Source: a virus (lineage: Duplodnaviria > Caudoviricetes). Taken from it: 64,000 bases of DNA. The DNA is taken from IMG/VR virus record IMGVR_UViG_3300031555_004891. One strand, written 5' to 3'. A model generated the notes under the pieces. It saw only the letters and a list, made by a program, of their open reading frames with translations, was not told the origin of the DNA and did no database searches. Position numbers and translations under genes: made by a program. Shown one piece after another: positions 3,189-62,878 of the stretch; position 1 is the first letter of the stretch, and every line of letters starts with the position of its first letter.

Positions 3189-3228
3189 CTAATGTCATTC
3201 TTTTTCTGTATAAAAATGTGGAGGTATA

Positions 3229-4395
3229 ATGACTAAGCTTGAAAAATTAGCATTAGAAATTGATTAGGATTTATTCTCAGATCTTTATTTGAAACAAAAT
3301 AAATCACAGAAGGATTTAGCGCAATATTTTAATGTAACAGTAAGAGATATTGAAGACTTATGTTTTTATTTCCACGCTATTAAGTTAAAGAAAAATTCAA
3401 AATTAGCGAATATTTTAAATAACTTAGATGCTGAAGCATTTATATCTGATAGACAGGTGTTAACATCAGCTGAACTAATAGTAAAATATGACTTAAAAAC
3501 ACATTATTAGTTATAGCGACTTGTTTTATGGACACATTGTTCTCTAACTGTTGAGCAGAAAAATCAAATAACAACACGAAAAATTCGGGAACAAACTGCA
3601 GATAAGAAATTATAGAATGTCTAGAAGTGTAATCAATCAAAAATAGAGCATTATGGATCTCTAGAAGAATGTAACAAACAATCTGTGATTAAAGTTCGAA
3701 AAACAAAACTGGATAGGTACAATGATCCTAAATATAATAATAGAGAAAAATCGAAGCAGACATGTTTTATTAAATATGGCGGACCCTCAAGCATGAATTC
3801 AGCAGAGGTTGTTTAGAAGGGTATGTAGACTAGAGAAAAACATGCTGGATCAATAGCTGCATCATATTCAGCAGGAAAGCTAAAGTAGCAAAAAACACTT
3901 AAAGAAAGATATGATGTAGATTATTTTGTACTACATCCAAAATGTAGATCTAAAATATAGCACACTAAGAATAGTAAACCAAATAAACGGTTCGCTAAAA
4001 TTTTAATAGAAAATAACATTGAGTTTGATCAAGAGTTTTTCCTTGAAAATAAATTTTATGATTTTAAAGTAAAAAATTATTTAATAGAAATAAATCCAGC
4101 GCCTACACATAATAGTTCTATTAATGTATTTGGATCTGATTAGCCTTTAGATAAGTACTATCATAGAAATAAATCTATGTTAGCTTTTAAGAATAATTAT
4201 ATTTGTATTCATGTTTGGGATTGGACAGATATAAATAGCGTATTAAGATTATTATGTACAGATATTTCATTAGATAAAATAATTTTCACAGAACCTTCTG
4301 TATATTATTATAATATAACAAAAAAGAAACTAACAGATATGTCAGATCCCAATGCTGTATAGATTTGGGATGATGGATTAAAAATAATGGAGTAA
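3229..4395 (+). CDS. free-standing putative homing endonuclease, 388 aa with 11 in-frame TAG
   Basis: GGAGG + ATG 3229, no TAA/TGA until 4393; KQTCFIKYG-type repeats then YDFKVKNYLIEINP..THNS..YHRNKS (Vsr/PD-(D/E)xK-like) C-terminus. Confidence 0.75.
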
Positions 4396-16477: not shown

Positions 16478-18336
16478 GATTTAAACGAGTTATAATTGAA
16501 AATTTCTTATCTATTGGTACTGCTGATATCAATCTTGAGGATAGAGGCTATTGTCAAATTATTGGTGTTAATAATAATCCCGCAGATCTGGCGAAGTCAA
16601 ATGGTAGCGGTAAAAGCAGCCTCATGTCAGCTATTGTTTGGGCTTTAACAGGTGAAACAGCGAGTGGTGTTAAAGATGTAGTTAACATGTTTAATCCAGG
16701 TGGTACATCAGTAGAATTACAGTTCACTGCTGATAATGATTCTTATGTTATTACCAGATATAAAGAGCATAAGAAGTTTAAAACTGACTTGAAAATTTTA
16801 GTTAACAGTGAGGATAAATCAGGAAAAGGTATTCGGGATAGTCAAAAGCTTTTAGAATCATATTTACCAGATTTAACACCATCACTTATTGGCTCTGTAA
16901 TTATTTTAGGTCAAGGCTTACCACAACGTTTTACTAATAACACACCTTCTGGAAGAAAAGAAGTCTTAGAAAAATTATCTAAGTCAGATTTCATGATAGA
17001 GGATTTGAAAAAACGTTTGGTAGAAAGAAAAGCAACCTTAAATAAATTGTTGCGTGAGCAAGAAGACAACATTTTAGCAGCTAACACCCAAAAAACTACC
17101 TTACAAACTCAAATAACGCAATCAGAACAGCGCTTAGCAACTTTAGAAGATCCTGCTATTTATTCTGATCTAATAAAGCGCACAGAAGAAAAGATTTCTT
17201 ATATAGATAATAAAGTTCAAGAATTAAAAACAGATCTTGACTTATATAGAGATACTTATCAAAAAGCTTCTTTGCAGAAAGCTGAAATTGAAAAAGATAT
17301 TGCTGAAAGAAGAAATGCAGTAAATGTAGAGTTCTTAAATGCTAAAAATGAGATAAATATAAGAAAGACTGAATTTCAATCTGCAATCGCAAATCTAACT
17401 AGAGAAATTACAAAAGCAAAATCAATCAAAGATACTTGCCCTACATGCGGTAGAAAATTTGAAAATGTTTATATTCCAGATACTACAGAGCAAGAATGTG
17501 AGGTAGAATCGTTAAGAATTAAAATAGCTGATTTAGATAAAATTTTATCTGAAGTAGTTTCTAGTAATAATGCTGAGATGGATTCTTTTGACGCAGAATT
17601 ATCAGAAAGGACTGAAGCATTAACTAGAGAGCTCTTAGAAACTCAAGCACATATTTCAAGTTTAGAGAAAGCTATAAGCGCACAACAGTATGAGAGAAAT
17701 GTTGAGCAAACATCATTGACTAAATATGAAAATCTTAAATCTACATATTATGCAACAGTAGATGCTATAAGCAGCACTATTGCGAGCAATAAAACCGCAA
17801 TTGCAGAATTAGAGCAAAATCTGGTATATTATATTGATAGTAAGGAAAAGCTAGAAGTCCGTCTAGAAGTAATAAATAAATTTACAACTATTACTACTAG
17901 AGATTTTAGAGGGTACTTGCTTAAAAATGTAATAGAATTTATTGATAAGAAGTCAAAAGATTATTGCAGATTTATTTTCGATACGGATAAGTTAGACTTT
18001 ATTCTTGATGGAAATAATATAGATATCAGATATTGTGATAAGCAGTATGAATCTTTATCAGGTGGTGAGAAACAGAAAGTAGATTTAATTGTACAATTTG
18101 CTATCAGAGATATGCTCTGTCAATTTTTAGGTTTTGCATCAAATATTTTAGTATTAGATGAGATATTTGATAATCTGGATAGTATAGGTTGTGATAGAGT
18201 TATTAATATGTTGTCTCAAAATTTGTCTGATATTGATAGTGTTTTTATTATATCGCATCATCAAGACCTTGCATTACCTTCTGACTCTACTATTACAGTT
18301 ATTAAACAAAATAACGGAGTCAGCACGGTACAATGA
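16468..18336 (+). CDS. sbcC: SbcC/Rad50-like ATPase
   Basis: NGSGKS, CPTC hook, LSGGE, LVLDE, ISH. Confidence 0.92.
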   Translation: MQLRFKRVIIENFLSIGTADINLEDRGYCQIIGVNNNPADLAKSNGSGKSSLMSAIVWALTGETASGVKDVVNMFNPGGTSVELQFTADNDSYVITRYKEHKKFKTDLKILVNSEDKSGKGIRDSQKLLESYLPDLTPSLIGSVIILGQGLPQRFTNNTPSGRKEVLEKLSKSDFMIEDLKKRLVERKATLNKLLREQEDNILAANTQKTTLQTQITQSEQRLATLEDPAIYSDLIKRTEEKISYIDNKVQELKTDLDLYRDTYQKASLQKAEIEKDIAERRNAVNVEFLNAKNEINIRKTEFQSAIANLTREITKAKSIKDTCPTCGRKFENVYIPDTTEQECEVESLRIKIADLDKILSEVVSSNNAEMDSFDAELSERTEALTRELLETQAHISSLEKAISAQQYERNVEQTSLTKYENLKSTYYATVDAISSTIASNKTAIAELEQNLVYYIDSKEKLEVRLEVINKFTTITTRDFRGYLLKNVIEFIDKKSKDYCRFIFDTDKLDFILDGNNIDIRYCDKQYESLSGGEKQKVDLIVQFAIRDMLCQFLGFASNILVLDEIFDNLDSIGCDRVINMLSQNLSDIDSVFIISHHQDLALPSDSTITVIKQNNGVSTVQ

Positions 18337-19187
18337 AAGAGTAGTTAAGAAAACGAACAGTAGATTATTGTATATATGTAGATGAGCATATATACACAAA
18401 TAATTTTGATCCAGAATAGATTTTTGATGCTTTATATAATATAGTTTATGTTTTAGCTATTAAGCATAAGCTATTTAAAAGCTGGGAAGATTATGAACCA
18501 TTTGCGATGGATTGTTCCTGTAGATTGTATTAGCGTCTAACTAATCCAAAGCAATTTTTACCAGAAGGTGATCCCAGAAAAATAAAGAAGATAAAATCTA
18601 TTCTAAATTATATTAAGAAAACATTATTCTTAATGAAAATAGATTATCAGAAAGAATTTTTTGGACAATAGTTTGTTCCTGAAATGCATGATCAATCTGT
18701 ATAGGATATCCGTGAGAGACTTGTTGGATCTGCTCACGAGCAAACAAAAAACTTTTTGCATGTAGATTTTGAGCATTATTTGAAAAAAATATCTCGAACA
18801 ATGAAACATTTCTTAAAGTCTACACCATATGCAAATAATCCAGTCATGTTACATAATATTTATTTAAGCTGTCTCATGACTATGCTTAATTAGATTACAT
18901 TAAATAATAATAACAAAAAACGTCTTGAAAATAAGCTTAAAAAAGGTTATGAGACATCGGATTTTATAAATAGAGTTTATATGGAAGAAGCATCTACATC
19001 AACTGTACTTTTTCATTTAGATGATAGTATGTTTAATTATATAAACACTCTAGTTGCTAGAATAAAGAAATTGATTGTTAAAGATTTACGAGATCTTATT
19101 GGTAGTGCAGAACCCACAGATACAGTAGTGCAAGCTATCATAGCATCATCGATGGAGGAATATTCGGATGATCCGGAACAATATTGA
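18333..19187 (+). CDS. hypothetical 284-aa protein with 6 in-frame TAG (possible transcription factor)
   Basis: ATG overlaps sbcC stop (ATGA); no TAA/TGA until 19185. Confidence 0.75.
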
Positions 19188-31647: not shown

Positions 31648-31720
31648 TGTATAACAAACTATGTGTGGATAAACTATTTACTTAAGAATAGTTAGTCCTT
31701 TTCCATATAGAGGGAGTAAT

Positions 31721-34700
31721 ATGTTTATAGTAAAAAGAAGCGGTAAGCGTGAAAAATTTGACAAAGAAAAAATAAAAATTGTTTTAGAAAAAGCTAATGA
31801 AACAGTTTTAGAAGAGTATCGAATATCTAAAACTATAATAAACAATATAGCTGAGAAGATCGAGAAGCTAGCAGAAGAAAATGCAACTATGTTTACTATA
31901 GATGATATCCAGGATGCAGTGGAAGATTATCTCATTAAAATAAATAAATATGAGTTAGCTAAATCATATATAAAACATAGATATACGAAAGAATTAGCTA
32001 GAGATAAATATTCTAAGATGATGGATGCTATTGCGAATAAAGTAGCATGCAAAGATATCCAAAATCAAAATGCTAACTTAGATGAAAAATCTTTTGGTGG
32101 TAGAATTGGTGAAACATCATCTTTAATAATGAAACAGTTTGCTTTAGATTATTGTGTATCACCCAAAACTAGAGAGAATCATCTCAATAATGAGGTTTAT
32201 ATACATGACCTCGATTCTTATGCTGTTGGAAGTCATAACTGTTTAAGTATTCCTTTTGATAAGCTATTAGCTAAAGGCTTTAATACTAGACAAACTGATG
32301 TTAGACCTGCAAATAGTGTTAATACAGCCATGCAGTTAGTTGCTGTTATATTCCAATTACAAAGTTTACAACAATTCGGTGGAGTAAGTGCAACACATCT
32401 AGATTGGACGATGGTTCCATATGTGAGAAAATCTTTTGCAAAACATTTTAAAGATGGTATGGAAGAATTACCTTTCAAGTGGTGGAAATTGTTTAAGGAT
32501 ACTAGAAACTATCAACCACCAAAAGAATTACCTTTCGATGATGCTACTATAAACTTAAAAAGATTTAGAAGAGTTTATAGATATGCTATGAAAATGACTA
32601 AAAAAGAAACCCATCAAGCAGTAGAAGCTTTATATCATAACTTAAATACATTGCAAAGTAGATCTGGCTGCCAACTTCCTTTCACCAGCATTAATTTAGG
32701 AACATGTACGCAAGAAGAAGGGCGGTTAGTCAGTAAAGAAATTCTTACTGTGTGTAGACAGGGTTTAGGTAAGTTTCATAAAACATCTATCTTCCCATGT
32801 GTTATATTTCAATGCATGAAGGGTGTTAACCGTAAAAAGGGTGATCCTAATTATGATTTATTTAGGCTAGCATTAAAATCAACTGCTGAGAGATTATACC
32901 CCAACTATGCTAATGTAGATTGGAGTGGTAATGCTGGATATGATCCAAAAGATCCTAAAACATATTTTTCAACGATGGGTAAGCGTAAACTACAGCTCAT
33001 CTAAAATCTTTTGAACCTCGCTCGAGGGTGTTTAATATTACTAAATGGGTAGAACCTTAAATATTTTTAATTAAAGGTTATGCTAAATTTATTGATAATA
33101 TTTTGCTAACGGTTAGGTCCAGACATCCTGGATGAGACCGTGCTAAGCGGGTGAGGATAGATTTGGTTATATACAAAATAACATGTTTAAAAAATAATAA
33201 AATTTATATAGGTCAAACAAAAAATACATCTAGAAGACGTTTCGAACATCATGTTAAAGGTGCCTTAACAAATGATTTAGATACGCATTTAGCTAGAGCT
33301 ATAAGAAAATATGGTCCAGAAAACTTTATTTTAGAAGATATAGATTTTGCTGAAAATCAAGAAGATTTAACTGAAAAAGAGTATTATTGGATAAATTTTT
33401 ATGAAAGCTTTAAGCCAGATATTGGTTATAATGAGACAAATAATAAAAATAAATGCGGCGGAAATACATATAAATTTAAAAGTATTGAAGAAATGCAGAA
33501 AATAAAACGTAAAATCTCAAAAGCAAATTCTGGTTCTAAAAATGGTATGTCAAAAGGTGTTAAATGTAAAAACACAAAAAGCGGAGAAGAATTTCATTTT
33601 GGTTCGACCGCGGAATGTGCTAGGTTTTTTGGTACATATGTAACTGGTTTTATAAGAAAACGCTGTTGTGGTTACAATTACCTATATAAAAATACCTGGG
33701 CTTTTGCTTGGGAAGATGATCAATTTCTTTTAGAATATGAGAATTTTGATCCATCTACTAGAAAAGGAATAAAAGTTTAGCTTTTAAATTTAGAAACAAA
33801 AGAGGTATATACTTTTAATAGTAAAAGTAAAGCAGCAAAATTTCTAAATGTTGAGTTAGCAATTATTAAACATGATATTATTGTAAATAATTATAGAATA
33901 TCTATTCTCAACTGAAAGTGTATCGACTATTCCTGATGAGTTTAAGGAAGTAGGATTGGAGATAAGCACCAATCCGAAGCGGAAGACTACTTATAATAAA
34001 AGTAGAAGATATAGTCAGTGCTAACAGTAATGTTAGATAAAATGTGTAGAACAGCGAATGGTTATGATATAAACGGCTTTGCTCAACTAAAAGACGGTAG
34101 AGGAAACATAGCACCTACTACTATAATTCTTCCAACATTAGCTATGGAAGCAGAGAAAGATGTTAAGAAATTTATGCGCCTTTTGAGAATTAAGTTAGAA
34201 GAAGCGAAAGATTCTTTAATTGATAGATTCGAATGGATTTCAAGTCAATCATCAGATTCTGCAAAATTTATGTATGAAAATGGAACTATGGAAGGTTACA
34301 TTCCGAAAGAAGGAATTAGATCAGCATTAAAACATGGTACTTTAGCTATCGGTATGTTAGGTATGGCTGAGACTTTAGAATTATTAGTTGGTTGTAATCA
34401 TACTAAACCAGAAGGAATGAAACTAGCAAAGAGAATTTGTTCCTTATATAAACAAAAATGTGCTGAGTATAAAGAAACATATAAGCTTAATTTTGGCGTA
34501 TATTACACACCAGCTGAGAATCTTTGTTATACTGCAATGAATAAATTTGTAGAAGCTTATGGTGTTATTCCTAAAGTTTCAGATCATGAGTATTTTACAA
34601 ATTCTATCCACGTACCAGTTTGGGAAGAAATAGATGCTTTTGAAAAAATAAGAATTGAAAGTGAGCTTACTGGATATAGTTCAGCTGGTTGTATAACATA

Positions 34701-35019
34701 TACTGAGTTAGATGCATCTGTAGCAAAAAACATAGATGCTTTAGAAGATTTAGTTAATTTTGCTATGGATCATGATATCCCGTACTATGCGATTAATGTA
34801 CCGGTAGATCAATGTATGAGTTGTGGCTATCAAGCAGAAATTACAGAAGATATTTGTCCTAAATGCGGTAGTACAAAAATACAGCGATTGAGACGTGTGA
34901 CAGGTTATTTGACAGGTTCCTATAAAGATTCTTTCAATTATGGTAAGCAGAAAGAAACCGAAGCTAGGGTAAAACATACAGGTATTTCTGTATTAAAAGA
35001 TAGCGAGGATAATGCTTAA
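31721..35019 (+). CDS. nrdD: anaerobic ribonucleotide reductase, two exons (31721-32980 and 34045-35019)
   Basis: ATP cone, IHDLD, spliced MG|CRT, TPAE, CxxC...CPKC, RRVTGYL glycyl-radical motif. Confidence 0.93.
32981..34044 (+). mobile_element. group I intron in nrdD
   Basis: Exon GATGGGT pairs with guide GCTCATC (32995-33001) with U.G at the splice site; P7 GACTA / AAGATATAGTC; terminal G 34044; removal restores MGCRT. Confidence 0.9.
33151..33915 (+). CDS. intron-encoded GIY-YIG homing endonuclease (1 TAG)
   Basis: VIYKI..KIYIGQT..R..E..GYN; TAG 33778 read through into a second NUMOD1-like repeat, TGA 33913. Confidence 0.88.
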
Positions 35020-38506: not shown

Positions 38507-38875
38507 ATGTTTGAAGATATTATATTAAAAACTGAACAGCATCTAATTTTTGTAGATCCTAACTGGACCTTCTTTTGGATTTTTGTTGTAGGCATCTCCA
38601 TTTTAGGCTTTTTATCATTTGTGTTCGCATTCAAAAATCTTTTTTTGAAGAAAATGAATATGCTTTTAACAAGTTTAGGCTGCACTGTTATGATGAGTCT
38701 AATAATCTGTGTATTAGGTTATTTTATTGCAACAGTTCCATATGTAGGTACCCCACACTATGAAAATTACTACCATGTAGAAGCAGAAAAATTTTATGTC
38801 TATGAAGAAAGAGATGAGTACGAGATTGTTCGACAGGAAGATAAAATATTAGTTGTAAGAGAGAAAACAGATTGA
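38507..38875 (+). CDS. two-TM membrane protein
   Basis: Two hydrophobic segments; resembles 53823 and 54214. Confidence 0.7.
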   Translation: MFEDIILKTEQHLIFVDPNWTFFWIFVVGISILGFLSFVFAFKNLFLKKMNMLLTSLGCTVMMSLIICVLGYFIATVPYVGTPHYENYYHVEAEKFYVYEERDEYEIVRQEDKILVVREKTD

Positions 38876-39414
38876 TGTTTTTAGATTATAATCTTATAGA
38901 TAAAAATATAGAAGAAAAATCTGGAATATACATCTTTTACAGAGAGTAGGAAGGTTTTAAGTTCGCTTATGTTGGCTAGTCTATAAATTGTAGAAATAGA
39001 ATAATTTAGCATCTCAAGGGCTACGATCAGCATATAGATTTAAGTATTCGTAAACATGGATTGTATTCCGAAGAAAATCTAACTGGATATAAAGTAACTA
39101 TAGCTGAATATTGCAATGAAGATGTATTAGATGAAAAAGAATTATTCTATTGCAAAAAATGGGCTAATGAAGGATATCAACTTAGAAACACTACTAGCGG
39201 AAGTTAGGGTCCAGGAAAGTTTGGTATAAACCCTAATAAATCCAGTAAGGGTTATCGAGATGGAGTTGCTTATGGTTATAAAAAAGCACAAAAAGAAATA
39301 AAACATCTTTTTGAAAAGCATTTAGAGGTATCGATAAAGGGTAAGCCTAATAAAAATAAACAAAAAGCTTTAGATAAATTTAATACATTTATAGATAATA
39401 CCACAGGAAATTAA
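38875..39414 (+). CDS. GIY-YIG nuclease, 179 aa, 4 TAG (absent from ORF track)
   Basis: SGIYIF..AYVG(TAG)S..R..(TAG)HL..LDEKE..LRN; ATG overlaps upstream TGA. Confidence 0.88.
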
Positions 39415-49224: not shown

Positions 49225-52200
49225 ATGGAAGATAAAATTGAAAAACTTAAAACAGCACTTTGTACAGCAAAAGCTGTCGCATCATTTTTTAAAGATGAGC
49301 TTGATGATGGTACAGCTAACTTCGATCATCCGCTTTTATTTAAGCCTGATGGAATGACAAAAAAGCAAATTTTAGAAGCTTTTGAAAAAGCGCTTATCCG
49401 TTGTGAAATCGAAACCATTGGAATTTGGAAAAATTGGATACACATCTATGGTGTTGTAGATGGTCAAGGAAATCGAAGAACAACTATGGCTGAAAAATTC
49501 TCAGAAGCTTTAGAGAAGCAAGGATTTAAATCTTGCGTATATTATCAGATGGATTGAGGTGAAATATGAAAAAAGTTTACATAGTGACTGTACAGCATGC
49601 TAATTATACATGGGAAAAAGTTTCTCAAGAAGGTTATGATTCTTTGATAAAAGCTCAAAAATTTATAGAATCTAGATCTGATAAGCCTGAAAAATTTACT
49701 GATTTTAATTATAAAAGTGACTCAAATATTTATCGAATTTATGAGATTTCTGTGGTGTAAATAGTTGATCTTTTTCTTGAAATATATTATAATATAAGTG
49801 TAAATAAAAGAAAGAGGTGTTAAATATGAAACTTGAAACATTACTTGAAAAGCTTGATTCTTATAAAGCTGGATCTTTCATCAATCTCGCATGGGAAAGG
49901 GAAGTTTCTAGCGCAAAAGCTAAAAAAGCCGGTATAAAGATAAGCAAGAAATCTGCTGGTCTTATTCGTACCGATGTTAATTACTCTGCTCTCGCAGCTG
50001 TTCAAGGTATTGAGCGTGGCGAAAAAGAATCATGGTTTGAGCATTATAGAAAAGGTCTTTTGCAATCTAAAAAAGATTCTTCTAAAAAATATTTGCAAGC
50101 GTTTCCGGTTCCTGGTAAGAAAATCTCTTCTATTATGGTAGTAGATACTGGATCTGAAGTGTATGAATGTGATGCTGAAAAGCTTTATGCTGATGGTCTT
50201 ATCACTAAAGCTGCTTTAGGAAGCAAGACTGGAACTGATACTTTTATCGTTAGCGTAGAAAATATTACATCTTTTGGAGGTAACGAGTAATGAAAGTTAA
50301 ACAAATCACTGGTCTTATTGATTATCCTGATGATGTGCAGGTGACGCTTTATGATTACACTAAATCAGATGTAGTGTATGTAGGTTTGGAAGAAAATATT
50401 CCAGAATATTATTTAGATGAAGAAATTCTCGGAATTGAGATTCCTAGCAAAAATGAAATCATGTTAAATATTAAAACAAAATAAATTAAAATATTGAGAG
50501 GTATATATTATGTCAAATCGAACTGTTGTTGTTGCTCCTTATGCTGTTTCTGGTGGCGCTTTTGGCTTTACGCCGGTGTTGAAGAAAAAGAAGCCTAATT
50601 TTGGTGGTATGTTCATTATTAATGGTAAGCAAGTTTATATCACCAAAGTTATCTACAATGATCCAGCTACTGTTGTATTCTGGTCTGATGGAAAGAAAAC
50701 CACTGCTAAATGCGATAAAGCAGATACATATAACAAAGAAGTTGGTCTTATGCTTTGTGTTATGAAGCGCATGGTTGGCGGTGAGCAAGTCTCTATGCTT
50801 TTCAAAGATTGGGTAACCGAAGATAAAGTTATCGATCTCAAGAAAGTGCGCGAAAATCAAAAAGTAAAGGTAGAAGCGAAAGAAGAAGTTAAAGAGCAAA
50901 ACGCATGAAAGTAACAGAAGTAAAAACATATACTTGCGAATACTGTGGTTTAACATTAGTTAATGAGGAAATGATGGCTTTTCACGAAGAAATTTGCCCT
51001 GAAAATCCTCAGAACCAACCTTGCAGTAAATGCCGTAGATGTGAAATTAATGGTTTTACTGGTGATGCTAAATGCTCTAAAAATATGGATATGGAAGGAA
51101 TTGGCGGTAAAGTCTTATGCTTCTTCTACCAAAAAGGACAACCAGAAATACATATTTAATAGAATAAAAATAAGAGCAGTATAGCGTAAAATAGTATACT
51201 GCTCTTTTCTTTGAGGAAAAACTCTTATGGAACAAATAAGTTCAAGAAAACCTGTAGCTAGAAAAGAATATTGCTGTGATTATTGTAGAGATAAAATTAA
51301 AAAGGGACAGCGTTATTATAGAAGCTTTTGGAAAGATGATGTAGCTTATGAGTGGATAGCTCATCTAGAATGTCAATTTATAGTTAATGAGCTCTGGGAT
51401 TATTATGATCCAGATTATGGTGTTGACTCAGAAAATTTTGGAGAAATGTGTCATGATTTCTGTCAGAATTTTATTTGCCCTGCTTGCGAATATTGGGATA
51501 AAGCGTATGACGAATGCAGCGAAGATAAATGCTACATAGAATGTTTTGATAAAATTGTAGAAACATTAAAAAAGAAATACATAAAGTATATACCAAAGCA
51601 ACCTGGCGACTGGTTTGGACAATATATTTTAGTAGATAGAGAGAAGGTGATTGAAAATGTCTAGATATGATAATAATAACAATTCTGGATTAGGATTACT
51701 AGATGTTGCTGAAATAGCTTGCTTTATAGTTTTCTTAGTCTTTAAATTGGTCGGTTTAATTGATTGGTCATGGTGGTGGGTAACGGCACCGCTTTGGGGT
51801 GGATTCCTGCTTAATCTATTTATTATTTTAATAGTGTTTATTGTAATGTGGATTTACATAAAGTGGGATGGAAGACATTATTAAATTAGTTGATTTCTTA
51901 ATTAAAAGATTATATAATATAAATATAAAATTTATTAAAGGTAACTTTTTATAATGAAAAAATTAGTAATCACTTTGTTAGCATTTTTAACGATTTTTAG
52001 TTTTACAGCTTGCAATAGCAATAATAAAGATTATGAGGAATATCAACCAACGCAAGGTTCAATGTTTGCCTGCATTGAGTCTTACGAAGATCCTTATTTA
52101 GGTGCAGTAACAATTCTCGTAGATAGAGAAACCAGAATTATGTATATGCATTATTGGGAAAATGCCAGTACGGATTATGGAGTTAGTGGCATTACCGTTT

Positions 52201-52253
52201 TATATGATTCAGATGGCAAACCTAAAAAATATAATGGAGTGATTACAGAGTAA
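49225..52253 (+). CDS. run of small TAG-free early ORFs (49225, 49566, 49817, 50290, 50510, 50905, 51227, 51651 membrane, 51954 lipoprotein-like)
   Basis: Follow promoters at 49163, 49765, 51890; FTAC lipobox-like in 51954. Confidence 0.65.
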
Positions 52254-52945
52254 TGTTAAAAGTTTATTGTGATGGTGCATGTAGTGGTAATCCTGGTCCT
52301 GGTGGTTGGGCATTTGTAATTCCTAAATTCGATATTGAGATATCAGATTATGAAGAGCAAACAACAAATAATAGAATGGAAATTACTGCAGTAATGAAGG
52401 CTCTCGAATATTTATTGGAACATTTTTTCAATGAAGATAATATAGAGATAATTACTGATAGTCAATATGTTATTAATACAATGACTAAAGGGTGGCAAAA
52501 GAAAAAGAATACAGATTTATGGGATAGATTAGATAATGCTGTAGGAAAATTTAATTCTGTAACCTGGACATGGGTTAAAGGCCATGCAGATAACAAGCAC
52601 AATCAACGATGTGATGAACTTGCTGTTGCAGAATACAGGGCGTATCAAGAGAGTAAACGAACAATTAAAGAACTTGAAGAAGAAAGGGAATTAAAATGGT
52701 ATGGTAAACAAATTCCATTAACCTCAACTCAAAAAATAGTTGTAGAATTTGCTCCACTTGAACAATACGATGTAGGTAAAAATCATTTTGTTAATATTCT
52801 AAAATGCACAGCGATTGATGCTGTTTATGCAGCAGAAGCCGATAATAATGAGCTTTTATGTATTGGATCTTACTCAGAATGCCGGCAAGTATTACAAAAT
52901 TACAAAAGTTTAGTAGAAGATGATTTTCGGAGGATTCCTTTTTAA
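52253..52945 (+). CDS. rnhA: ribonuclease HI with C-terminal extension
   Basis: DGACSGNPGPGG, TNNRME, TDSQY, WVKGH, N.RCDELA. Confidence 0.93.
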   Translation: MLKVYCDGACSGNPGPGGWAFVIPKFDIEISDYEEQTTNNRMEITAVMKALEYLLEHFFNEDNIEIITDSQYVINTMTKGWQKKKNTDLWDRLDNAVGKFNSVTWTWVKGHADNKHNQRCDELAVAEYRAYQESKRTIKELEEERELKWYGKQIPLTSTQKIVVEFAPLEQYDVGKNHFVNILKCTAIDAVYAAEADNNELLCIGSYSECRQVLQNYKSLVEDDFRRIPF

Positions 52946-52947
52946 TT

Positions 52948-54609
52948 ATGATTCTTAATATTTTATTATCAGCTTTATTAGCTGCCACGCTCTTCCTAAT
53001 GTCTATGGGAATTATCTATCACGTGATACACCCGAATTATGAAGATTATCTAGAAGAAGAAACAAAAGCTGATAAAAAAGCTGACATATCTCTTATAGTA
53101 AATATTATTCTTTTCATTGGCTTTATTTTTGCTGGAATTGGTATAAGTGATAATGGTGATAAAAAATTTGTTGCAGAATATCAAGCTCAAAAATATACTA
53201 TCGAATCTAGCCTTGAAAATGCTGATTTAACAGGTCTTGAAAGAATTGAGTTAGTAAAACTAGCCACAGAGTTAAATAAAGATTTAGCAGCTAGAAAATA
53301 TAATTTCAACAAATGGTATAATGTGCATTATGATAATTCTATTTATGACAATATAGAATTTATTAATTTGGGAGGTACGCAAGAATGAACATCATTACCT
53401 GGGAATGGTTTATGATAATCGGCTTAATTGTAGGTTGGTCAGGTTTTTTGATTGGTAAAATTATTTATGATAACAGTTACTCTTTAGAAACTTTAGGGAC
53501 AGTTATGGCTGTTATTTCAAGCGTAATTCTTCTTTTGTCTGTTATTCTTATGATTCCATTGACATTAGCTCAAAGTAAAGTTGAAAAAGAATATAGCAGG
53601 TATATGGAAATTAAAACAGAATATTACGAAGCAAGAATAAATTATTTAGAAAATCCCGATGATGATTTTGCTAAAATTGCTTTAGATCTTGCTGAGCAAA
53701 AAGTCGAGTTTCAATGGAATGCTTGGTATGATACATATAAAGACGACTTAAATAATGAGTGGCACCTTTGGGGAACCAGCAGCTACGCTAAAAAGATGGA
53801 TTATATTGAGGTTAAATAAATTATGTTACCTGGCGTTATAATATTAGATTCTTATCAGTATGTAAGCGAATATAGTGCATTTAAAACAGGTCCGTTTTTG
53901 TTAACCTGCTTAGCTATATTCTTAGGTTGGATTATTCTAATTTTCGCCATATTAATCGGTTTGGATGGCAACTTTTCTAGTCTAAAAGATTCTTTTGTTT
54001 GGTTTTTTACTTTATTTGCTTCTTTTTTAATGACAATATTTATGGGAGCTCTGGTTAGTCTATGTTTTCAAGGCGATCCTATTGAGTATACCACTGTTTA
54101 TAAGGTAACTACAATGGATACTGTAAATGTGAATGATTTTACTGATATGTATGAGATAATCGAAGTAGAAGGTAAAATCTATACTGTAAAGATAAGAGAA
54201 AAATAAACAGGAAGTGTTGATAATGGAAGGTGTTATTGAGATTAGTAAAGAAGCTATATATGGTTGCTGGCAATATGCTTACATATTTGGTATTATTAGC
54301 TTTTTTATCTTTAGTTGTATTTTTACTTATACCATTATAAAGAATAAGAAATCTGGTGTTATTTATGATTGCAAGAATGTACTGCTGACTATTATTCTTT
54401 ATATTTTAGGAGCTATAGCTTCATGCATGGTTGTTATTTTAGCGGACTGTTTTGGTAAATTATTAGATGAGAAGAATTGCCCCGTTTTGTATTATGAGTA
54501 TACTGTTAAAATTACTGATGACGTTGATTTTGGTAAATTTAAAGATACATATAAAATATTAAGAGAAACAGAAGATAATACATATATTGTTATTTTGAAG
54601 GAAAATTGA
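52948..54609 (+). CDS. four tandem two-TM membrane proteins (52948, 53385, 53823, 54214)
   Basis: Paired hydrophobic helices in each. Confidence 0.7.
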
Positions 54610-54612
54610 TCT

Positions 54613-55116
54613 ATGTTTAGTGTTAGAAAAAATACGTTTGAAACAAATAGCTCTAGTACGCATTGCTTATGTTATGAAAAATCTGTAGAGCTCAAATCTG
54701 AAGATCTAGAAAAATTAAAAGAAGCTTATATAATTAAACCATATACGCAAGAAGAAATAGATGATGTTATGGAAATTACATCTATAAAAGATAAGTTAAG
54801 ATATTTCTACACTTTGTACATACAGGCTAATCATACTAGCAATAAATTTATGAGAAAGCTAAAAAATATTGTACCAAATGTTATTTTTAGTGAAGAATTT
54901 CCAGATGAGACTTATATTCTTGAAGATGGGGACAGCTTTATGGAAGGTGGTTACTTTGCTCCAGCAGAATATGAGATATTAACAGATGACTTGCTCACTA
55001 AACTTTTATTATATGGAAAAATCTATTTTGGTGATAGAGATAGAGAATCTTATTCGGATAAAGTATATGGCATCGAGCATAGTGATGCTTATTTTTCCAT
55101 GGTTTGGAGCGGTTAA
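54613..55116 (+). CDS. phage protein with RxxxFETNSSSxH motif
   Basis: VRKNTFETNSSSTH. Confidence 0.75.
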   Translation: MFSVRKNTFETNSSSTHCLCYEKSVELKSEDLEKLKEAYIIKPYTQEEIDDVMEITSIKDKLRYFYTLYIQANHTSNKFMRKLKNIVPNVIFSEEFPDETYILEDGDSFMEGGYFAPAEYEILTDDLLTKLLLYGKIYFGDRDRESYSDKVYGIEHSDAYFSMVWSG

Positions 55117-55235
55117 TTTATTTATTTTATAAAATTACAGACTTAAATTATAAATTATATCAGCAAAACAATAAAAAATCAAAAACAGATAACTGTATAT
55201 AATAGAGAAGATAATCAAATCTTCTCTATTTTTAT

Positions 55236-55326
55236 TGCCCCTTAGGTTAATGGTAAACCGCCGGTCTCTAAAACCGTTATACTCTCTGAAAGGGTAATCT
55301 GGGTTCGAATCCCAGAGGGGTAGCCA
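55236..55326 (+). tRNA. amber-decoding tRNA (CUA) with long variable arm
   Basis: TGCCCCT/AGGGGTA acceptor, G73, CCA; loop CT-CTA-AA (55268-70); 6-bp extra arm; CTGGG-TTCGAAT-CCCAG T arm. Confidence 0.9.
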
Positions 55327-55330
55327 ATAC

Positions 55331-55408
55331 TGGGGATTAGCATAACGGCTATTGTGCGGCGGACTCTAAATCCGTTTTGAGCTGGGTCGGCACCAGCATC
55401 CCCCGCCA
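55331..55408 (+). tRNA. amber-decoding tRNA (CUA), Gln-like acceptor stem
   Basis: TGGGGAT/ATCCCCC (U1.C72, G2-C71, G3-C70), G73, CCA; GCGGA-CTCTAAA-TCCGT; atypical T loop GTCGGCA. Confidence 0.88.
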
Positions 55409-55443
55409 ACTTAAAAATAATTAACTTTCCGGAGGCTCTTATT

Positions 55444-55911
55444 TTGAAACTATTTAGAAATTTCAAACTTTGTAGAGAAACTAGAAAAGAAATAAAGCAA
55501 GCAGAAAAAGAAAAGAAAAGATGTGCAAAAAAATATTCTGATTGGAAAGATGATGAGTATAACTGCGGTCCACTTAAATTTATTTGGGGATTAAAATCTT
55601 ACGATGACCTATCTTCTTGCGATGTTAATTTTTATTCTATGAACGATATAGATGTATATTTCAATAGGGATACTCAAAAATATATTTTAGGTATTGAAAC
55701 TATCTTTAAGTTTGAAAGTCAAGATCATAGAATAAAATATCTAGAAAGATTATTAAAAGCATTTAAAGAATATATGAGTGGTAAATTTGATAGTACTTTT
55801 GACCCACACAACTTATATTTATATAATGATGGTAATTTTTTTCAAGCAAGTAGTTTGACAGAGCTTTATTATAAATTTGAAATATTTGTGACTGGTTATA
55901 GTCAACTTTAA
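55444..55911 (+). CDS. hypothetical protein
   Basis: GGAGG + TTG start. Confidence 0.65.
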   Translation: MKLFRNFKLCRETRKEIKQAEKEKKRCAKKYSDWKDDEYNCGPLKFIWGLKSYDDLSSCDVNFYSMNDIDVYFNRDTQKYILGIETIFKFESQDHRIKYLERLLKAFKEYMSGKFDSTFDPHNLYLYNDGNFFQASSLTELYYKFEIFVTGYSQL

Positions 55912-56013
55912 TTCTTTAGAGGTAAGCTTATTAAATTTAATCTTTAAGTTAGATTTAGTACAAAAGCTATGCTAAATTAAATAGATAATCTTTAATATGC
56001 TTAAAATATTTAT

Positions 56014-56385
56014 ATGAGAACATTTGAGTATTTTTTCACTAGACAAGCAGTTGGAGAGTTAGAAGTAGAAGATATGGGTAATTGCTGTATCGAAGCCACT
56101 AACGATCAAGGTATGCTTTATTATTTAGTAACTGATACGAAATTAGGCTAGACTAGAATTTTTGAGTATGGTCCAGCTATACCTGATTTTGATGAGTTAC
56201 CAAAAAGTGTTTATTGCGCTTTTTCTAGAATAGAATATGATGAGCGTAAACTTACAAAAAAGATTTCAGAATTTCTTAATAGTCCTACTCGAGAGATTAC
56301 GCAAGCTTTCGAAGTTGATAGAGATATTTGTTTCTCTAATTGTAAATGTATAAATGACTATATGGAAAATAAAGAAAACTTTTAA
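56014..56385 (+). CDS. hypothetical protein (1 TAG; absent from ORF track)
   Basis: ATG 56014 to TAA 56383 with a single TAG. Confidence 0.65.
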
Positions 56386-56654: not shown

Positions 56655-59015
56655 ATGGCTGGAAATAATGTAATACAGATACTCAGGGGTACTAGAGATG
56701 AGATCGCTTCTAACAAAAATAAAGATGTGATGCTCAACGAAGGTTAGCTTCTTTATAATCTTACAGATAATTATCTTACCTGTGGTGGTGAAAATGGTAG
56801 TAAGTTAACTAGCCTACCAGTAACTACTAGAAGTATGTCAGGTCATTATGATGATTAGATAATGGGAATATTGCCATCTAATTGCCTTGATGGATCTGTT
56901 GATAAATACAGAGTGGGCCCAGTAGTAACACCAACTAGAGTAGAGTATGATGAGAATGGCGATCCTATAAAAACTTATTATGACTCAAAATTTGAAATAG
57001 ATTCTGCTTTAGGATCAAAAATTATCTTAGGCTCAGATTTTATTAAGTTATCTTTAAGTGATGGTAAACATGTAACACTAAATTCTTCAGGTTTTTCATC
57101 ATCAAGTGGATCATCTGCTAGCTCAGTAAACGCAACAGATTTATCAGCATCTTCTGCAAATATTGGTGGAGCACTTACTTCGAGAAGCATAAGTGTTGGT
57201 GGAACTAAGACTTATTTATCCGCTAACGGTAATGCTGTAACTTTAAGAAATGCTAAAAAGATTCTATTAGATGGTGAAAATGGTACTATAGAGCAAAAAG
57301 CAAGCAGCATAACTCAAGAAGCCATAGTATTAGATTCTAAAGTTGCTGTTATTAATTTCAATTCGCAAGTAGAGATTGGAACTACTGCTGCTAGATTAAA
57401 TCTAAAATTCGCTAAACCAACTAATATAGATGGGAATATTAATTTTACTGGAAAAGTAACATCATCTTACACACCTAGAGATGAGAATGATGTAGTAAGA
57501 CTTAAAGATTTAGGTGTTAATATAGATTAGTTGCAAGATTCTATCGATGGAATTGTTATTCCAGATAAATCTTCTTCATCTGCAGTAAGTGATTCTGTAG
57601 TTGTAACTGAGTCAGATTTAGATGATCAATATTCTGTTATTATAAGTACTGCTGGTGAAAAATCAGCTTTATCAGCTACACCTAAAAATTTAGTATCTAT
57701 AAATCCTAAAAATGGTAGAATGACTGCTGGTAGATATACTGTGAGCACAGCAGATCAGCAAGTTGAAAGAGATAATGCACACGGTATAAATTTAAATAAC
57801 TCTGATGCAATAAACGCTCATGCTATACACTTTAATAACACTGGAAATTATGGTTTAACATTCTCTAGTAAGAATGATCGCTTTTATGTAGATAGAGGCA
57901 CTGCTTTTATCTAGACTAAAAATGATAAAAATGAAACTATAACTAAAACACTTCTTACTCAAGAAGGTGGTGATATAACAACCCTTAATATATAGAATGA
58001 TTTTACCGTTGGCGGTAAATTGACTGTTAATGGAAGCTTTCAACCAAATAAACTAGTTATAGCTGGTGCTAATTAGCATGTGCGTGATGGTGCTAAATCT
58101 TATGGTTTCTATGCAAATAATTCTGATATTGATGGTGTATATAATATAAGGTTTGAGACACATGCAGATAACCCAGATCAAGGTATCTTATTCTAGAATC
58201 GTGATTTTGATAATCAATATTATAGATTAGCAGCTGAGACATCAAATACAGGACCTAAGTTATATTTAAGTACTGTAAAGTATGATGAAAGTGGTAAAAA
58301 AGTTATTGGTGTTGGAACTAATGATTCTCATGTAAAATACGAAGTTATAACATCTAAAGGTGGATAGACTATAGGTGATGGAACTACCACAAACAATCTT
58401 TAGATGTTTACAGTAAACGGTCACCAAACAGTAACAAAGACCTTAACAGCAAACAAAGCTTCTTTAACAGATTTATCTGTTAGCGGCGGTGCTGTAAGCA
58501 TTAAGAATAAAAGCAATAAAACAGGTGAAATAGTCTTAACAGATGGAAGTGTTACTGCTAAAACTATAACTGCTACTGATACTATAAAATCTAATAAAAA
58601 TATAATAGCCAGCGGTGATATTACAGGTAACGTATTGCAGACTAGTGGTTCTCATAATGTAGTTATCGATGGTAATACAGGTAATATTTCCGGTGCTTAT
58701 CTAGATGGTACAGCAAATTATGCTAAACACTTAGCGCCTGGAGCCGTTAAATTAGGCCTTCTTCCTGAAGGCACCTATACAGGTAACGATCCAAACACTT
58801 TGTATATTTTAGTATGTAAATCTAGCGATGGCAAATCGAATTGCACATTTAAGTCTAAGTATGCTTATGATTATTGCTATATAAGAATATCTTCCGATGA
58901 TGATCACAACAAAGAGGACGCTGGAAGCATGAGTGCTGGAACTGAGTTAAAAATACATAATGATACAAATGATGATTGGATACATACTTGGTTGTATGTA
59001 TACACTAAAAATTAA
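56655..59015 (+). CDS. long Mtd_N-like tail fibre C, 786 aa, 9 TAG
   Basis: VIQILRGT..LNEG(TAG)LLYN..LTCGG; no TAA/TGA until 59013; G/S/T-rich beta repeats. Confidence 0.85.
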
Positions 59016-62808: not shown

Positions 62809-62878
62809 CTATGGATAGTCTAGCGGATAAGACGCTGGTTAAGAGCCAGTATCGCAGGTTCGAATCCTGCTCTATAGC
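62809..62878 (+). tRNA. short tRNA-like gene, AAG anticodon, no encoded CCA
   Basis: CTATGGA/TCTATAG, GTCT/AGAC, CTGG-TTAAGAG-CCAG, GCAGG-TTCGAAT-CCTGC. Confidence 0.65.

What the first reader, a model, noticed from the sequence alone, without database searches (positions are those of the whole stretch)
55236..55408. Tandem amber-decoding tRNAs with different architectures
Seen: two CCA-ending tRNAs 4 nt apart, both with CUA anticodons. tRNA-2 is class I with Gln-type acceptor features (weak 1-72 pair, G2-C71, G3-C70, G73) but a non-canonical T loop. tRNA-1 has U1-A72, G73 and a 6-bp variable arm. Established: long arms typify Ser/Leu/Tyr tRNAs, SerRS reads the arm rather than the anticodon, and U1-A72 is the GatCAB determinant. 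Inference: the pair may cover both Gln-charging routes (GlnRS versus GluRS plus GatCAB) in different hosts, or tRNA-1 may carry another amino acid such as Ser, making TAG decoding ambiguous.
Basis: partly seen in the sequence, partly recalled or inferred. Interest (0 to 1): 0.8.

Follow-up and report, generated by a model that had tools for sequence, protein, structure and literature searches.

The report
Paired glutamine amber-suppressor phage tRNAs
A gut phage that reads the stop codon TAG as glutamine carries two side-by-side tRNAs for that job, both built on a glutamine-tRNA plan; the longer one has an extra hairpin that displays the normal glutamine anticodon, a design that may explain how host enzymes load glutamine onto a stop-codon reader.

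Summary
There are two tRNA(CUA) genes, at 55236-55326 (91 nt, long variable arm) and 55331-55408 (78 nt, class I). They lie 4 nt apart and both encode CCA.

TAG means glutamine in this phage: in-frame TAGs fall on invariant Gln columns of homologues. I found no sign of serine or ambiguous decoding.

- **tRNA-2** has the GlnRS acceptor set (G2-C71, G3-C70, G73) with a pre-broken U1·C72 pair. Its odd T-loop is conserved in independent samples.
- **tRNA-1** is not Ser-like. It has a class-I D-arm and a Gln-type acceptor and anticodon stem. It belongs to a widespread phage family of 51 unique sequences.
- **The family's variable-arm tip** always shows YUG-A, a glutamine anticodon. Stems vary across 23 versions.
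- **Complete phage genomes** with only this tRNA type still read TAG as Gln.
- **Long-arm opal suppressors** carry the Trp anticodon loop (U-CCA-A) in the same place.

Best reading: both are Gln amber suppressors. tRNA-1's extra arm is a pseudo-anticodon that restores recognition by the host Gln-charging enzyme. That last step is inferred, not shown.

Earlier notes of this scan reached the same two-headed reading on other DNA. I found no paper describing it.

The parts
55236..55326 (+). tRNA-1: amber suppressor tRNA(CUA), 91 nt, Gln-type body with a long variable arm ('two-headed'), CCA encoded
   Evidence: ARAGORN; Rfam 56.2 bits; cloverleaf is the MFE; family analysis
55268..55270 (+). Anticodon CUA of tRNA-1, in a canonical 7-nt loop CUCUAAA
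55280..55296 (+). Variable-arm hairpin of tRNA-1: 6-bp stem and loop CUGAA (55286-55290). CUG at 55286-55288 is the proposed pseudo-anticodon (a Gln anticodon)
   Evidence: YUG followed by A is present in 51/51 and 50/51 family members, against 1/90 control class II tRNAs
55327..55330 (+). 4-nt spacer ATAC between the two tRNAs; 5 nt in a relative from another study
55331..55408 (+). tRNA-2: class I amber suppressor tRNA(CUA), 78 nt, with U1.C72, G2-C71, G3-C70, G73 and CCA encoded
   Evidence: ARAGORN; Rfam 33.1 bits. Identical in an independent sample, and a variant has 4 compensatory anticodon-stem pairs. The same acceptor design is seen in class I partners of other lineages
55386..55392 (+). 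Non-canonical T-loop GUCGGCA of tRNA-2 (G54, G58)
   Evidence: Unchanged in contigs of other studies. The same T-arm occurs in a metagenomic tRNA-Tyr, L297
55201..55235 (+). Intrinsic-terminator-like hairpin (12-bp stem) plus T-tract, ending 1 nt before tRNA-1
   Evidence: fold -14.5 kcal/mol, z -5.9
55193..55202 (+). CTGTATATAA motif, a candidate phage promoter. It overlaps the 5' arm of the hairpin. The same motif precedes TAG-bearing ORFs at 3206, 22604 and 25010
   Evidence: 5 matches against 0.93 expected, 0/100 shuffles reach 5. The promoter function is inferred
38872..39414 (+). GIY-YIG endonuclease-like ORF with 4 in-frame TAGs; a client of the suppressors and used to read the meaning of TAG
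56655..59015 (+). 786-codon tail-fibre-like ORF with 9 in-frame TAGs, 1.2 kb downstream of the tRNA pair
3229..4395 (+). DUF7487 ORF with 11 in-frame TAGs

Best explanation
The window belongs to a large animal-gut phage that reads TAG as glutamine in a subset of its genes.

Both tRNAs are glutamine-accepting amber suppressors derived from tRNA-Gln and charged by host enzymes. They represent two different answers to one problem: the CUA anticodon lacks G36, which Gln-charging enzymes read.

tRNA-2 keeps the full GlnRS acceptor set (G2-C71, G3-C70, G73) and has its first pair already broken (U1.C72).

tRNA-1 keeps a Gln-type acceptor end and anticodon stem. It adds a second hairpin in the variable region whose tip displays U-CUG-A, a copy of the glutamine anticodon. 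This pseudo-anticodon most likely gives the anticodon-binding part of the host enzyme something cognate to hold, while the true CUA arm decodes UAG on the ribosome.

Shown: the tRNAs are real; TAG means Gln; the body and acceptor are Gln-type; the YUG-A tip is conserved; long-arm-only genomes read TAG as Gln; Trp/opal suppressors show the same design with CCA.

Inferred: Gln charging of each individual tRNA, and binding of the pseudo-anticodon by GlnRS or ND-GluRS.
For: (1) TAG = Gln in the window.
- GIY-YIG ORF: TAG columns are Q 114/120, Q 120/120 and Q 80/120; a fourth is E 111/120, with Q in 3 of the 4 closest relatives.
- Fibre-like ORF: TAG 31 aligns with Q in 52/52 homologues.
- DUF7487 ORF: TAG columns are rich in E, K and Q.

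(2) Complete phage genomes with direct terminal repeats, G001 (169 kb) and G002 (181 kb).
- Their only credible CUA tRNA is the long-arm type. This holds under relaxed ARAGORN settings apart from one low-score candidate in G002.
- Reading TAG as sense raises coverage by ORFs of 100 aa or more from 66% to 93% in G001.
- TAG aligns to CAA 16 times and CAG 7 times out of 90 columns. That is 25.6% Q, against 28.5% Q-to-Q conservation in the same alignments. Gln beats Lys by 31.8 and Ser by 59 log-likelihood units.
- Five such genomes encode no GlnRS or GluRS.

(3) Gln ancestry.
- G002's own tRNA-Gln(UUG) shares the acceptor stem of its long-arm suppressor.
- G001's tRNA-Gln(CUG) shares the C27.U43 anticodon stem and the D-arm.
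- In the 51 unique long-arm sequences, 1:72 is never G-C, 2:71 is G-C in 46, 3:70 is G-C or C-G, and N73 is G or A. This matches the 42 authentic phage tRNA-Gln and not the 72 tRNA-Ser.

(4) Pseudo-anticodon.
- 51/51 have CUG (42) or UUG (9) at the hairpin tip.
- The next base is A in 50/51 and the preceding base is U in 40/51.
- There are 23 distinct stems.
- Control class II tRNAs show YUGA in the loop in 1/90.
- CUCUGAA and CUUUGAA are real anticodon loops of phage tRNA-Gln in the same loci.

(5) Independent parallel: 24/24 unique long-arm tRNA(UCA) carry U-CCA-A in the extra arm, most with a Trp-like acceptor end.

(6) Class I partners in other lineages share U1.C72, G2-C71, G3-C70 and G73. 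Both CUA types occur in 17 of 83 loci, mostly adjacent.

(7) tRNA-2 is under constraint.
- It is identical in a contig from another study, where the flanks carry about ten differences.
- A bovine-gut variant has 4 double compensatory changes in the anticodon stem and keeps the odd T-loop.

(8) 3 of 5 MAGs holding such tRNAs encode a 551-572 aa ORF with the GlnRS C-terminal domain.

(9) From memory, not checked here:
- GlnRS opens the 1:72 pair and reads C/U34, U35 and G36.
- It splays these bases from a loop closed by 33.37 and 32.38 pairs (Rould 1991; Jahn 1991).
- It accepts a tRNA-Ser amber suppressor, long arm included, once the acceptor pairs are made Gln-like (Rogers and Soll 1988).
Against: No aminoacylation, expression or proteomic data exist for these tRNAs.

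The hairpin geometry varies: loops of 3 to 7 nt and stems of 2 to 6 bp. Only 25 of 51 sequences have YUG centred as in an anticodon loop. In the window the loop is a pentaloop, CUGAA. It is therefore not an exact copy of an anticodon arm.

In the standard L-shape a variable arm points away from where GlnRS holds the anticodon. Binding would need an alternative stacking or another contact.

tRNA-1 here has G2.U71 and C3-G70, not the E. coli GlnRS set.

Body-similarity ranking puts a tRNA-Gln first for tRNA-1, but only narrowly ahead of Lys.

A minor share of mis-serylation cannot be excluded from alignments.

The host is unknown, so the charging enzyme is unknown.
Confidence: 0.6

Rival explanations
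1. tRNA-1 is a Ser-type (supD-like) suppressor. SerRS reads the long arm, so TAG is decoded ambiguously as Gln and Ser.
For: tRNA-1 has G73 and a 6-bp variable arm. SerRS ignores the anticodon (established knowledge). Class II-bodied CUA tRNAs do exist in other phage contigs, for example L091 and L118.
Against: - The D-arm is class I (4-bp stem, 7-nt loop), 1:72 is U-A and 3:70 is C-G. Phage tRNA-Ser in the same loci have G1-C72 in 64/72 and A3-U70 in 42/72.
- Long-arm-only genomes read TAG as Gln. Ser aligns in 3/90 columns and its likelihood is 59 units worse.
- TAG falls on invariant Gln positions of a nuclease motif.
- SerRS would not explain an invariant YUG-A tip.
Confidence: 0.05
2. Division of labour between charging routes. 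tRNA-2 serves GlnRS. tRNA-1 serves ND-GluRS plus GatCAB, or different hosts. That is why the two types are kept together.
For: - The pair recurs in several distinct lineages, which argues against simple redundancy.
- tRNA-2 and its counterparts have U1.C72, which fits GlnRS but lacks the U1-A72 that GatCAB reads. tRNA-1 has U1-A72 and a small D-loop.
- A YUG pseudo-anticodon would serve ND-GluRS as well as GlnRS.
Against: - Among long-arm members 1:72 is A.C in 14, U.U in 6 and U.C in 3 of 51, not U-A.
- Three of five MAGs with such tRNAs have a GlnRS-like gene.
- Long-arm tRNAs alone suffice in complete genomes.
- The host of this phage is unknown.
Confidence: 0.2
3. The conserved extra hairpin serves a partner other than the synthetase, such as a phage protein, a modification enzyme or a decoy for a host nuclease. 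Alternatively it is a slowly decaying relic of an anticodon-arm duplication.
For: No binding data exist. The hairpin geometry is heterogeneous. The standard position of a variable arm is far from the anticodon pocket of GlnRS (structural knowledge).
Against: - The tip triplet follows the amino acid: CUG or UUG in amber/Gln suppressors and CCA in opal/Trp suppressors. That is what a synthetase identity element would do.
- 23 different stems with an invariant tip argue against a neutral relic.
- No candidate phage partner was found next to the tRNAs.
Confidence: 0.2
4. tRNA-1 switches between two cloverleaves and decodes both CAG (through the CUG hairpin) and UAG.
For: There are two consecutive hairpins, each tipped by an anticodon-like triplet. 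Some family members have a 7-nt loop CUCUGAC or CUCUGAA on a 3-5 bp stem.
Against: - In the window the second hairpin is 6 bp with a 5-nt loop.
- Across the family, loops run from 3 to 7 nt, which is incompatible with ribosomal decoding.
- The CUA arm is canonical in every member.
- The MFE and centroid structures give the standard cloverleaf.
Confidence: 0.05

Closest known systems
Phage-encoded tRNA-Sup(CUA) of TAG-to-Gln ('code 15') phages, especially phAss-1 (OQ749652; PMC10607447); also crAss-like, Lak and others (Borges preprint 10.1101/2021.08.26.457843; PMC9523058)
   Same: - Phage-borne amber suppressors in a genome that uses TAG = Gln in part of its genes.
- phAss-1 and its relatives carry the same tandem of a 75-nt class I and a 91-nt long-arm tRNA(CUA).
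- No phage aaRS is present.
   Different: - The papers annotate them only as tRNA-Sup-CTA with a Gln isotype. The passages my term searches returned do not mention the long arm or its YUG tip.
- In the window the gene order is reversed, with the long-arm tRNA first.
- The window phage is not a close relative: only 69 nt match at 88%.
E. coli supE-type tRNA-Gln(CUA) and the GlnRS identity set (U1-A72, G2-C71, G3-C70, G73, G10, anticodon YUG)
   Same: - tRNA-2 has G2-C71, G3-C70, G73 and G10.
- tRNA-1 has U1-A72, G73 and G10.
- Both have C34 and U35.
   Different: - tRNA-2 replaces U1-A72 with a U.C mismatch and has G54/G58 in the T-loop.
- tRNA-1 has G2.U71 and C3-G70 and an added hairpin.
- The identity rules are recalled from E. 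coli work and were not tested on the unknown host.
Class II tRNAs (bacterial Ser, Leu, Tyr) and supD-type Ser amber suppressors
   Same: A long variable arm; G73 as in tRNA-Ser.
   Different: - tRNA-1 has a class I D-arm.
- Its 1:72 pair is weak.
- Its arm tip is conserved in sequence.
- The family does not share the Ser acceptor profile.
- TAG is not Ser.
Engineered tRNAs with a pseudo-anticodon arm in the V-arm (Mukai 2020, PMC7590224)
   Same: A hairpin in the variable-arm position carries the cognate anticodon, so as to recruit a synthetase's anticodon-binding domain to an amber suppressor.
   Different: Those tRNAs are synthetic, use an allo-tRNA chassis and need a HisRS fused to an extra binding domain. 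Here the design is natural, widespread and would have to work with unmodified host enzymes.

Membership tests
tRNA (Rfam RF00005) | Cloverleaf scoring above the gathering score of 29 bits | tested here: met
   56.2 and 33.1 bits; ARAGORN; MFE cloverleaves
Amber suppressor tRNA of a TAG-recoded phage | CUA anticodon in a canonical 7-nt loop, and in-frame TAGs in conserved genes of the same genome | tested here: met
tRNA-Gln identity (GlnRS set, from E. coli) | Weak or open 1:72 pair and G73 | tested here: met
   tRNA-1 has U1-A72 and G73; tRNA-2 has U1.C72 and G73
tRNA-Gln identity (GlnRS set, from E. coli) | G2-C71 and G3-C70 | tested here: inconclusive
   tRNA-2 meets both. tRNA-1 has G2.U71 and C3-G70. 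Authentic phage tRNA-Gln in the same loci also show C3-G70 in 13/42
tRNA-Gln identity (GlnRS set, from E. coli) | Anticodon YUG with G36 | tested here: not met
   Both decoding anticodons are CUA (A36). tRNA-1 carries CUG only in the extra hairpin
tRNA-Gln identity | Actual charging with glutamine | not testable with these tools
   Inferred from TAG = Gln and from long-arm-only genomes
Class II tRNA-Ser | 3-bp D-stem with a long D-loop, G1-C72, usually A3-U70, G73, and a long arm without a sequence requirement | tested here: not met
   tRNA-1 has a 4-bp D-stem, a 7-nt D-loop, U1-A72 and C3-G70. Only G73 and the arm length fit
tRNA-Pyl (ARAGORN's label for any cta anticodon) | Short D-loop without G18G19, 6-bp anticodon stem, 3-nt variable loop, one base between the acceptor and D stems | tested here: not met
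   Both have GG in the D-loop and two bases at positions 8-9. tRNA-1 has a long arm. The label is a naming convention only. The feature list is recalled from memory
Two-headed phage suppressor tRNA (long-arm CUA family defined here) | Class I D-arm, Gln-like acceptor, and an extra hairpin with YUG-A at its tip | tested here: met
   tRNA-1 has all of these. 51 unique members were found by a scan that did not constrain the arm

The most novel reading that the evidence does not exclude
Natural suppressor tRNAs solve the identity problem of a changed anticodon by carrying a second, non-decoding hairpin that presents the cognate anticodon to the host synthetase. That anticodon is CUG or UUG for Gln and CCA for Trp. 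tRNA-1 is a member of this class. The tandem partner tRNA-2 is an alternative solution, an opened 1:72 pair, kept alongside it for a second enzyme, host or stage of infection.
Probability: 0.45. Interest if true: 0.9.

Novelty: new variant of a known kind. Interest (0 to 1): 0.8.

Why it matters
Phage stop-codon recoding is known. How a host synthetase that reads the anticodon comes to load glutamine efficiently onto a CUA tRNA is an open point, raised in the recoding literature itself.

A natural tRNA that separates the identity anticodon from the decoding anticodon would be a new principle of tRNA identity. It would explain why only Gln and Trp reassignments are common in such phages.

It would also give genetic-code engineers a ready-made way to make efficient suppressors without altering synthetases.

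The recurrent pairing of two designs in one operon offers a direct comparison in a single system.

Tried and rejected
- **No whole genome is held for the window**.
- **No close relative found in two searches.** Megablast of 24 kb of the window against phage records gave nothing close. The search for related loci with the 786-aa TAG-rich protein found no relative in IMG/VR.
- **The 786-aa protein has few homologues.** The exhaustive protein search found homologues only for its N-terminal ~200 residues, so only 2 of 9 TAG positions could be read.
- **G001 versus the window was uninformative.** Too few shared genes: 2 TAG columns. Pfam did not recognise G001 structural proteins.
- **Metagenome scan with the 17-nt T-arm of tRNA-2 was too unspecific.** It gave 120 mostly unrelated GC-rich hits. 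One informative hit was a tRNA-Tyr with the same T-arm.
- **No RNA holder is listed among public runs**, so expression and processing could not be examined.
- **Neighbouring ORFs 51227-56382 gave no translation-related family** in PHROGs. A Pfam call failed on a bad coordinate.
- **Crude body-similarity ranking, used as a stand-in for tRNAscan-SE isotype models, had weak resolution.** Gln came first for tRNA-1. For tRNA-2, Gln came second, behind the tRNA-Tyr that shares its T-arm.
- **The tRNA-Pyl label of ARAGORN was rejected** as a naming convention.
- **No theta ribozyme match.** No HDV-like theta ribozyme (PMC10879173) appeared among the Rfam matches around the tRNAs.
- **Literature searches found no description of a natural pseudo-anticodon arm in suppressor tRNAs**. 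Only open-access text is covered.

Full report
**1. Observation**

ARAGORN reports two tRNA genes with anticodon cta at 55236-55326 and 55331-55408 on the + strand. Rfam's tRNA model scores them 56.2 and 33.1 bits against a gathering score of 29. Both fold into the cloverleaf as MFE and centroid.

They are 4 nt apart and both encode CCA.

tRNA-1 (91 nt) has:
- U1-A72, G2.U71, C3-G70 and G73;
- a class-I-type D-arm (4-bp stem, 7-nt loop);
- a canonical anticodon loop CUCUAAA;
- a variable arm with a 6-bp stem and a CUGAA loop.

tRNA-2 (78 nt) has:
- a U1.C72 mismatch, G2-C71, G3-C70 and G73;
- a T-loop GUCGGCA, in which positions 54 and 58 are G instead of U and A.

**2. Context**

The window has 31.6% G+C, and nearly all long ORFs are on the + strand. 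It encodes a T4-like replication set: sliding clamp, clamp loader, UvsX, topoisomerase II, SbcCD-like nuclease and NrdD.

A subset of ORFs is open only if TAG is read through:
- 3229-4395 (11 TAGs);
- 18333-19187 (6 TAGs);
- 38872-39414 (4 TAGs);
- 56655-59015 (9 TAGs), and others.

Most replication genes have none.

The stretch occurs in animal faeces and bovine-gut metagenomes of about 13 studies. No whole genome is held for the window.

**3. What TAG means here**

- The GIY-YIG-like ORF has thousands of homologues. Its four TAGs align with Q 114/120, Q 120/120, Q 80/120 and E 111/120. For the last column, three of the four closest relatives have Q.
- TAG 31 of the fibre-like ORF aligns with Q in 52/52 homologues.
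- TAG columns of the DUF7487 ORF are variable and rich in E, K and Q.
- No column is dominated by S, L, Y or W.

TAG is glutamine, as in the published code-15 phages.

**4. The pair is a recurrent design**

phAss-1 (OQ749652) and its relatives carry a 75-nt class I tRNA(CUA) directly followed by a 91-nt long-arm tRNA(CUA). The paper calls them tRNA-SUP-CTA and reads TAG as Gln. The passages my term search returned say nothing about architecture.

Among 83 loci with a long-arm CUA tRNA, 17 also hold a class I CUA tRNA. These fall into several distinct sequence groups. In all the adjacent pairs outside the window, the class I gene lies upstream. In the window it is downstream.

The class I partners almost all share U1.C72, G2-C71, G3-C70 and G73, while the rest of the acceptor stem differs.

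**5. The long-arm tRNA is Gln-type, not Ser-type**

First, two complete phage genomes with direct terminal repeats, G001 (168,960 bp) and G002 (181,407 bp), have the long-arm type as their only credible CUA tRNA. This holds even at relaxed ARAGORN thresholds.

In G001, reading TAG as sense raises coverage by ORFs of 100 aa or more from 66% to 93%.

In 37 orthologous ORF pairs, TAG aligns to:
- CAA 16 times and CAG 7 times;
- K 11 and N 8;
- S 3, L 4 and Y 4.

The share aligned to Q (25.6%) equals the Q-to-Q conservation in the same alignments (28.5%). A likelihood comparison puts Gln 31.8 units ahead of Lys and 59 ahead of Ser.

None of five such genomes encodes a GlnRS/GluRS catalytic or anticodon-binding domain.

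Second, G002's own tRNA-Gln(UUG) has the same acceptor stem as its long-arm suppressor. G001's tRNA-Gln(CUG) shares the D-arm and the anticodon stem with the C27.U43 mismatch, which tRNA-1 also has.

Third, the acceptor profiles differ by family.

| Position | 51 unique long-arm CUA tRNAs | 42 authentic phage tRNA-Gln | 72 phage tRNA-Ser |
|---|---|---|---|
| 1:72 | never G-C: U-A 23, A.C 14, U.U 6, U.C 3, A-U 3 | U-A 30, A-U 8, G.U 3 | G-C 64 |
| 2:71 | G-C 46 | G-C 30 | G-C 45 |
| 3:70 | G-C 25, C-G 26 | G-C 25, C-G 13 | A-U 42 |
| N73 | G 40, A 11 | G 24, A 15 | G 60 |

The long-arm profile matches tRNA-Gln and not tRNA-Ser.

A crude body-similarity ranking also puts a tRNA-Gln first for tRNA-1, though only narrowly.

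**6. The extra arm carries a glutamine anticodon**

A scan that fixed only the CUA loop and the T-loop, and left the arm free, gave 51 unique Gln-like long-arm sequences.
- Every one has CUG (42) or UUG (9) at the hairpin tip.
- The following base is A in 50 and the preceding base is U in 40.
- RNAfold leaves the triplet unpaired in 45 of the 51.
- The stems come in 23 versions.
- Among 90 unique Ser, Leu and Tyr tRNAs of the same loci, YUGA occurs in the arm loop once.
- The strings CUCUGAA, CUUUGAA and CUCUGAC are also real anticodon loops of phage tRNA-Gln in these loci.

I reached this reading. A later look-up showed that earlier agents of this scan had reached the same reading on other genomes.

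Following one of those notes, I tested the opal case. A scan for long-arm tRNA(UCA) gave 24 unique sequences. All have U-CCA-A in the arm (mostly CUCCAAA, which I recall as the E. coli tRNA-Trp anticodon loop), and most have a Trp-like acceptor end.

The tip triplet therefore follows the amino acid in two independent classes.

**7. Mechanism**

From established E. coli work, recalled and not tested here:
- GlnRS breaks the 1:72 pair.
- It reads G2-C71, G3-C70, G73, G10 and the anticodon bases, G36 included.
- It splays C34, U35 and G36 out of a loop closed by non-canonical 33.37 and 32.38 pairs.
- Amber derivatives are poorer substrates.
- A tRNA-Ser amber suppressor with Gln-like acceptor pairs is glutaminylated despite its long arm.

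Against this background the two tRNAs look like two ways of regaining recognition. tRNA-2 has an opened first pair plus the full acceptor set. tRNA-1 has a spare cognate anticodon on a second hairpin.

Three of five MAGs that hold contigs with such tRNAs encode a GlnRS-like ORF. This is compatible with GlnRS as the enzyme, but binning of phage contigs is unreliable.

A synthetic precedent exists. Mukai (PMC7590224) put a pseudo-anticodon arm into the V-arm of amber suppressors to recruit an engineered HisRS.

I found no paper describing a natural case.

Weak points:
- The hairpin geometry varies. In the window it is a pentaloop.
- A standard variable arm does not point towards the anticodon pocket.
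- There is no biochemical evidence.

**8. Is tRNA-2 functional despite its T-loop?**

- A contig from another study spans the whole region with about ten differences in the flanks. It has none in tRNA-2 and only G57A in tRNA-1, plus one extra A in the spacer.
- A small contig from a bovine-gut run is a tRNA-2 variant with four double compensatory changes in the anticodon stem. Its CUCUAAA loop and its T-arm are unchanged.
- The main contig of that run has 185 other letters in place of 55236-55410, so the tRNA cassette is a variable spot.
- The same T-arm occurs in a metagenomic tRNA-Tyr.

The odd T-loop is therefore a conserved feature, not decay or an assembly error.

**9. Expression context (inferred)**

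A strong terminator-like hairpin with a T-tract ends 1 nt before tRNA-1.

Its 5' arm overlaps the motif CTGTATATAA. That motif occurs 5 times in the window against 0.93 expected. On the + strand it also sits just upstream of TAG-bearing ORFs at 3206, 22604 and 25010.

If this is a phage promoter, transcripts started there would lack the 5' arm and escape termination. Read-through from the upstream TAG-free block would be stopped. This would tie suppressor supply to the genes that need it. It is a hypothesis only.

**10. Verdict**

- Both tRNAs are Gln-type amber suppressors.
- The Ser/ambiguity idea is not supported.
- The two-route idea is open.

The most interesting content is the pseudo-anticodon arm of tRNA-1. 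It is a new variant of a known kind of element, and simple aminoacylation and reporter experiments would test it.

Noticed in passing
window 31673-35019: The NrdD gene is in two pieces (31673-33001 and 34000-35016), both matching one 760-aa NrdD of phage G001. A separate ORF (33136-33912) lies between them. Possibly an intron, intein or homing-endonuclease insertion.
   Followed up: no
window 62809-62878: A 70-nt class I tRNA with anticodon AAG, labelled Leu, has no long arm and no encoded CCA. G001 and G002 also carry short 'Leu' tRNAs (UAG, AAG, CAA anticodons) without a variable arm.
   Followed up: no
window 3206, 22604, 25010, 55193 (+ strand) and 4771 (- strand): The motif CTGTATAWAA is over-represented: 5 matches against 0.93 expected. 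On the + strand it lies just upstream of TAG-bearing ORFs and of the suppressor pair. It is a candidate phage promoter.
   Followed up: partly
loci L148-L235 (IMG/VR): Long-arm opal suppressor tRNA(UCA): 24 unique sequences, all with the Trp anticodon loop motif U-CCA-A in the extra arm.
   Followed up: yes
L091, L106, L118, L127, L141, L013 (IMG/VR): Other phage tRNA(CUA) genes have true class II bodies, with long D-loops and no YUG tip, and G73 or A73. They may insert Ser, Leu or Tyr at TAG in those phages.
   Followed up: no
L297:358-442: A metagenomic tRNA-Tyr(GUA) has the same unusual T-arm (GCUGG GUCGGCA CCAGC) as tRNA-2.
   Followed up: no
window 55236-55410 in run X8: In a bovine-gut relative the flanks are conserved, but the 175-nt tRNA cassette is replaced by 185 other letters. 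The suppressor cassette is exchangeable.
   Followed up: no
window 51227-51670: This ORF has a TAG two codons before a second stop. It may be a true TAG terminator with a back-up stop for when suppression is on.
   Followed up: no
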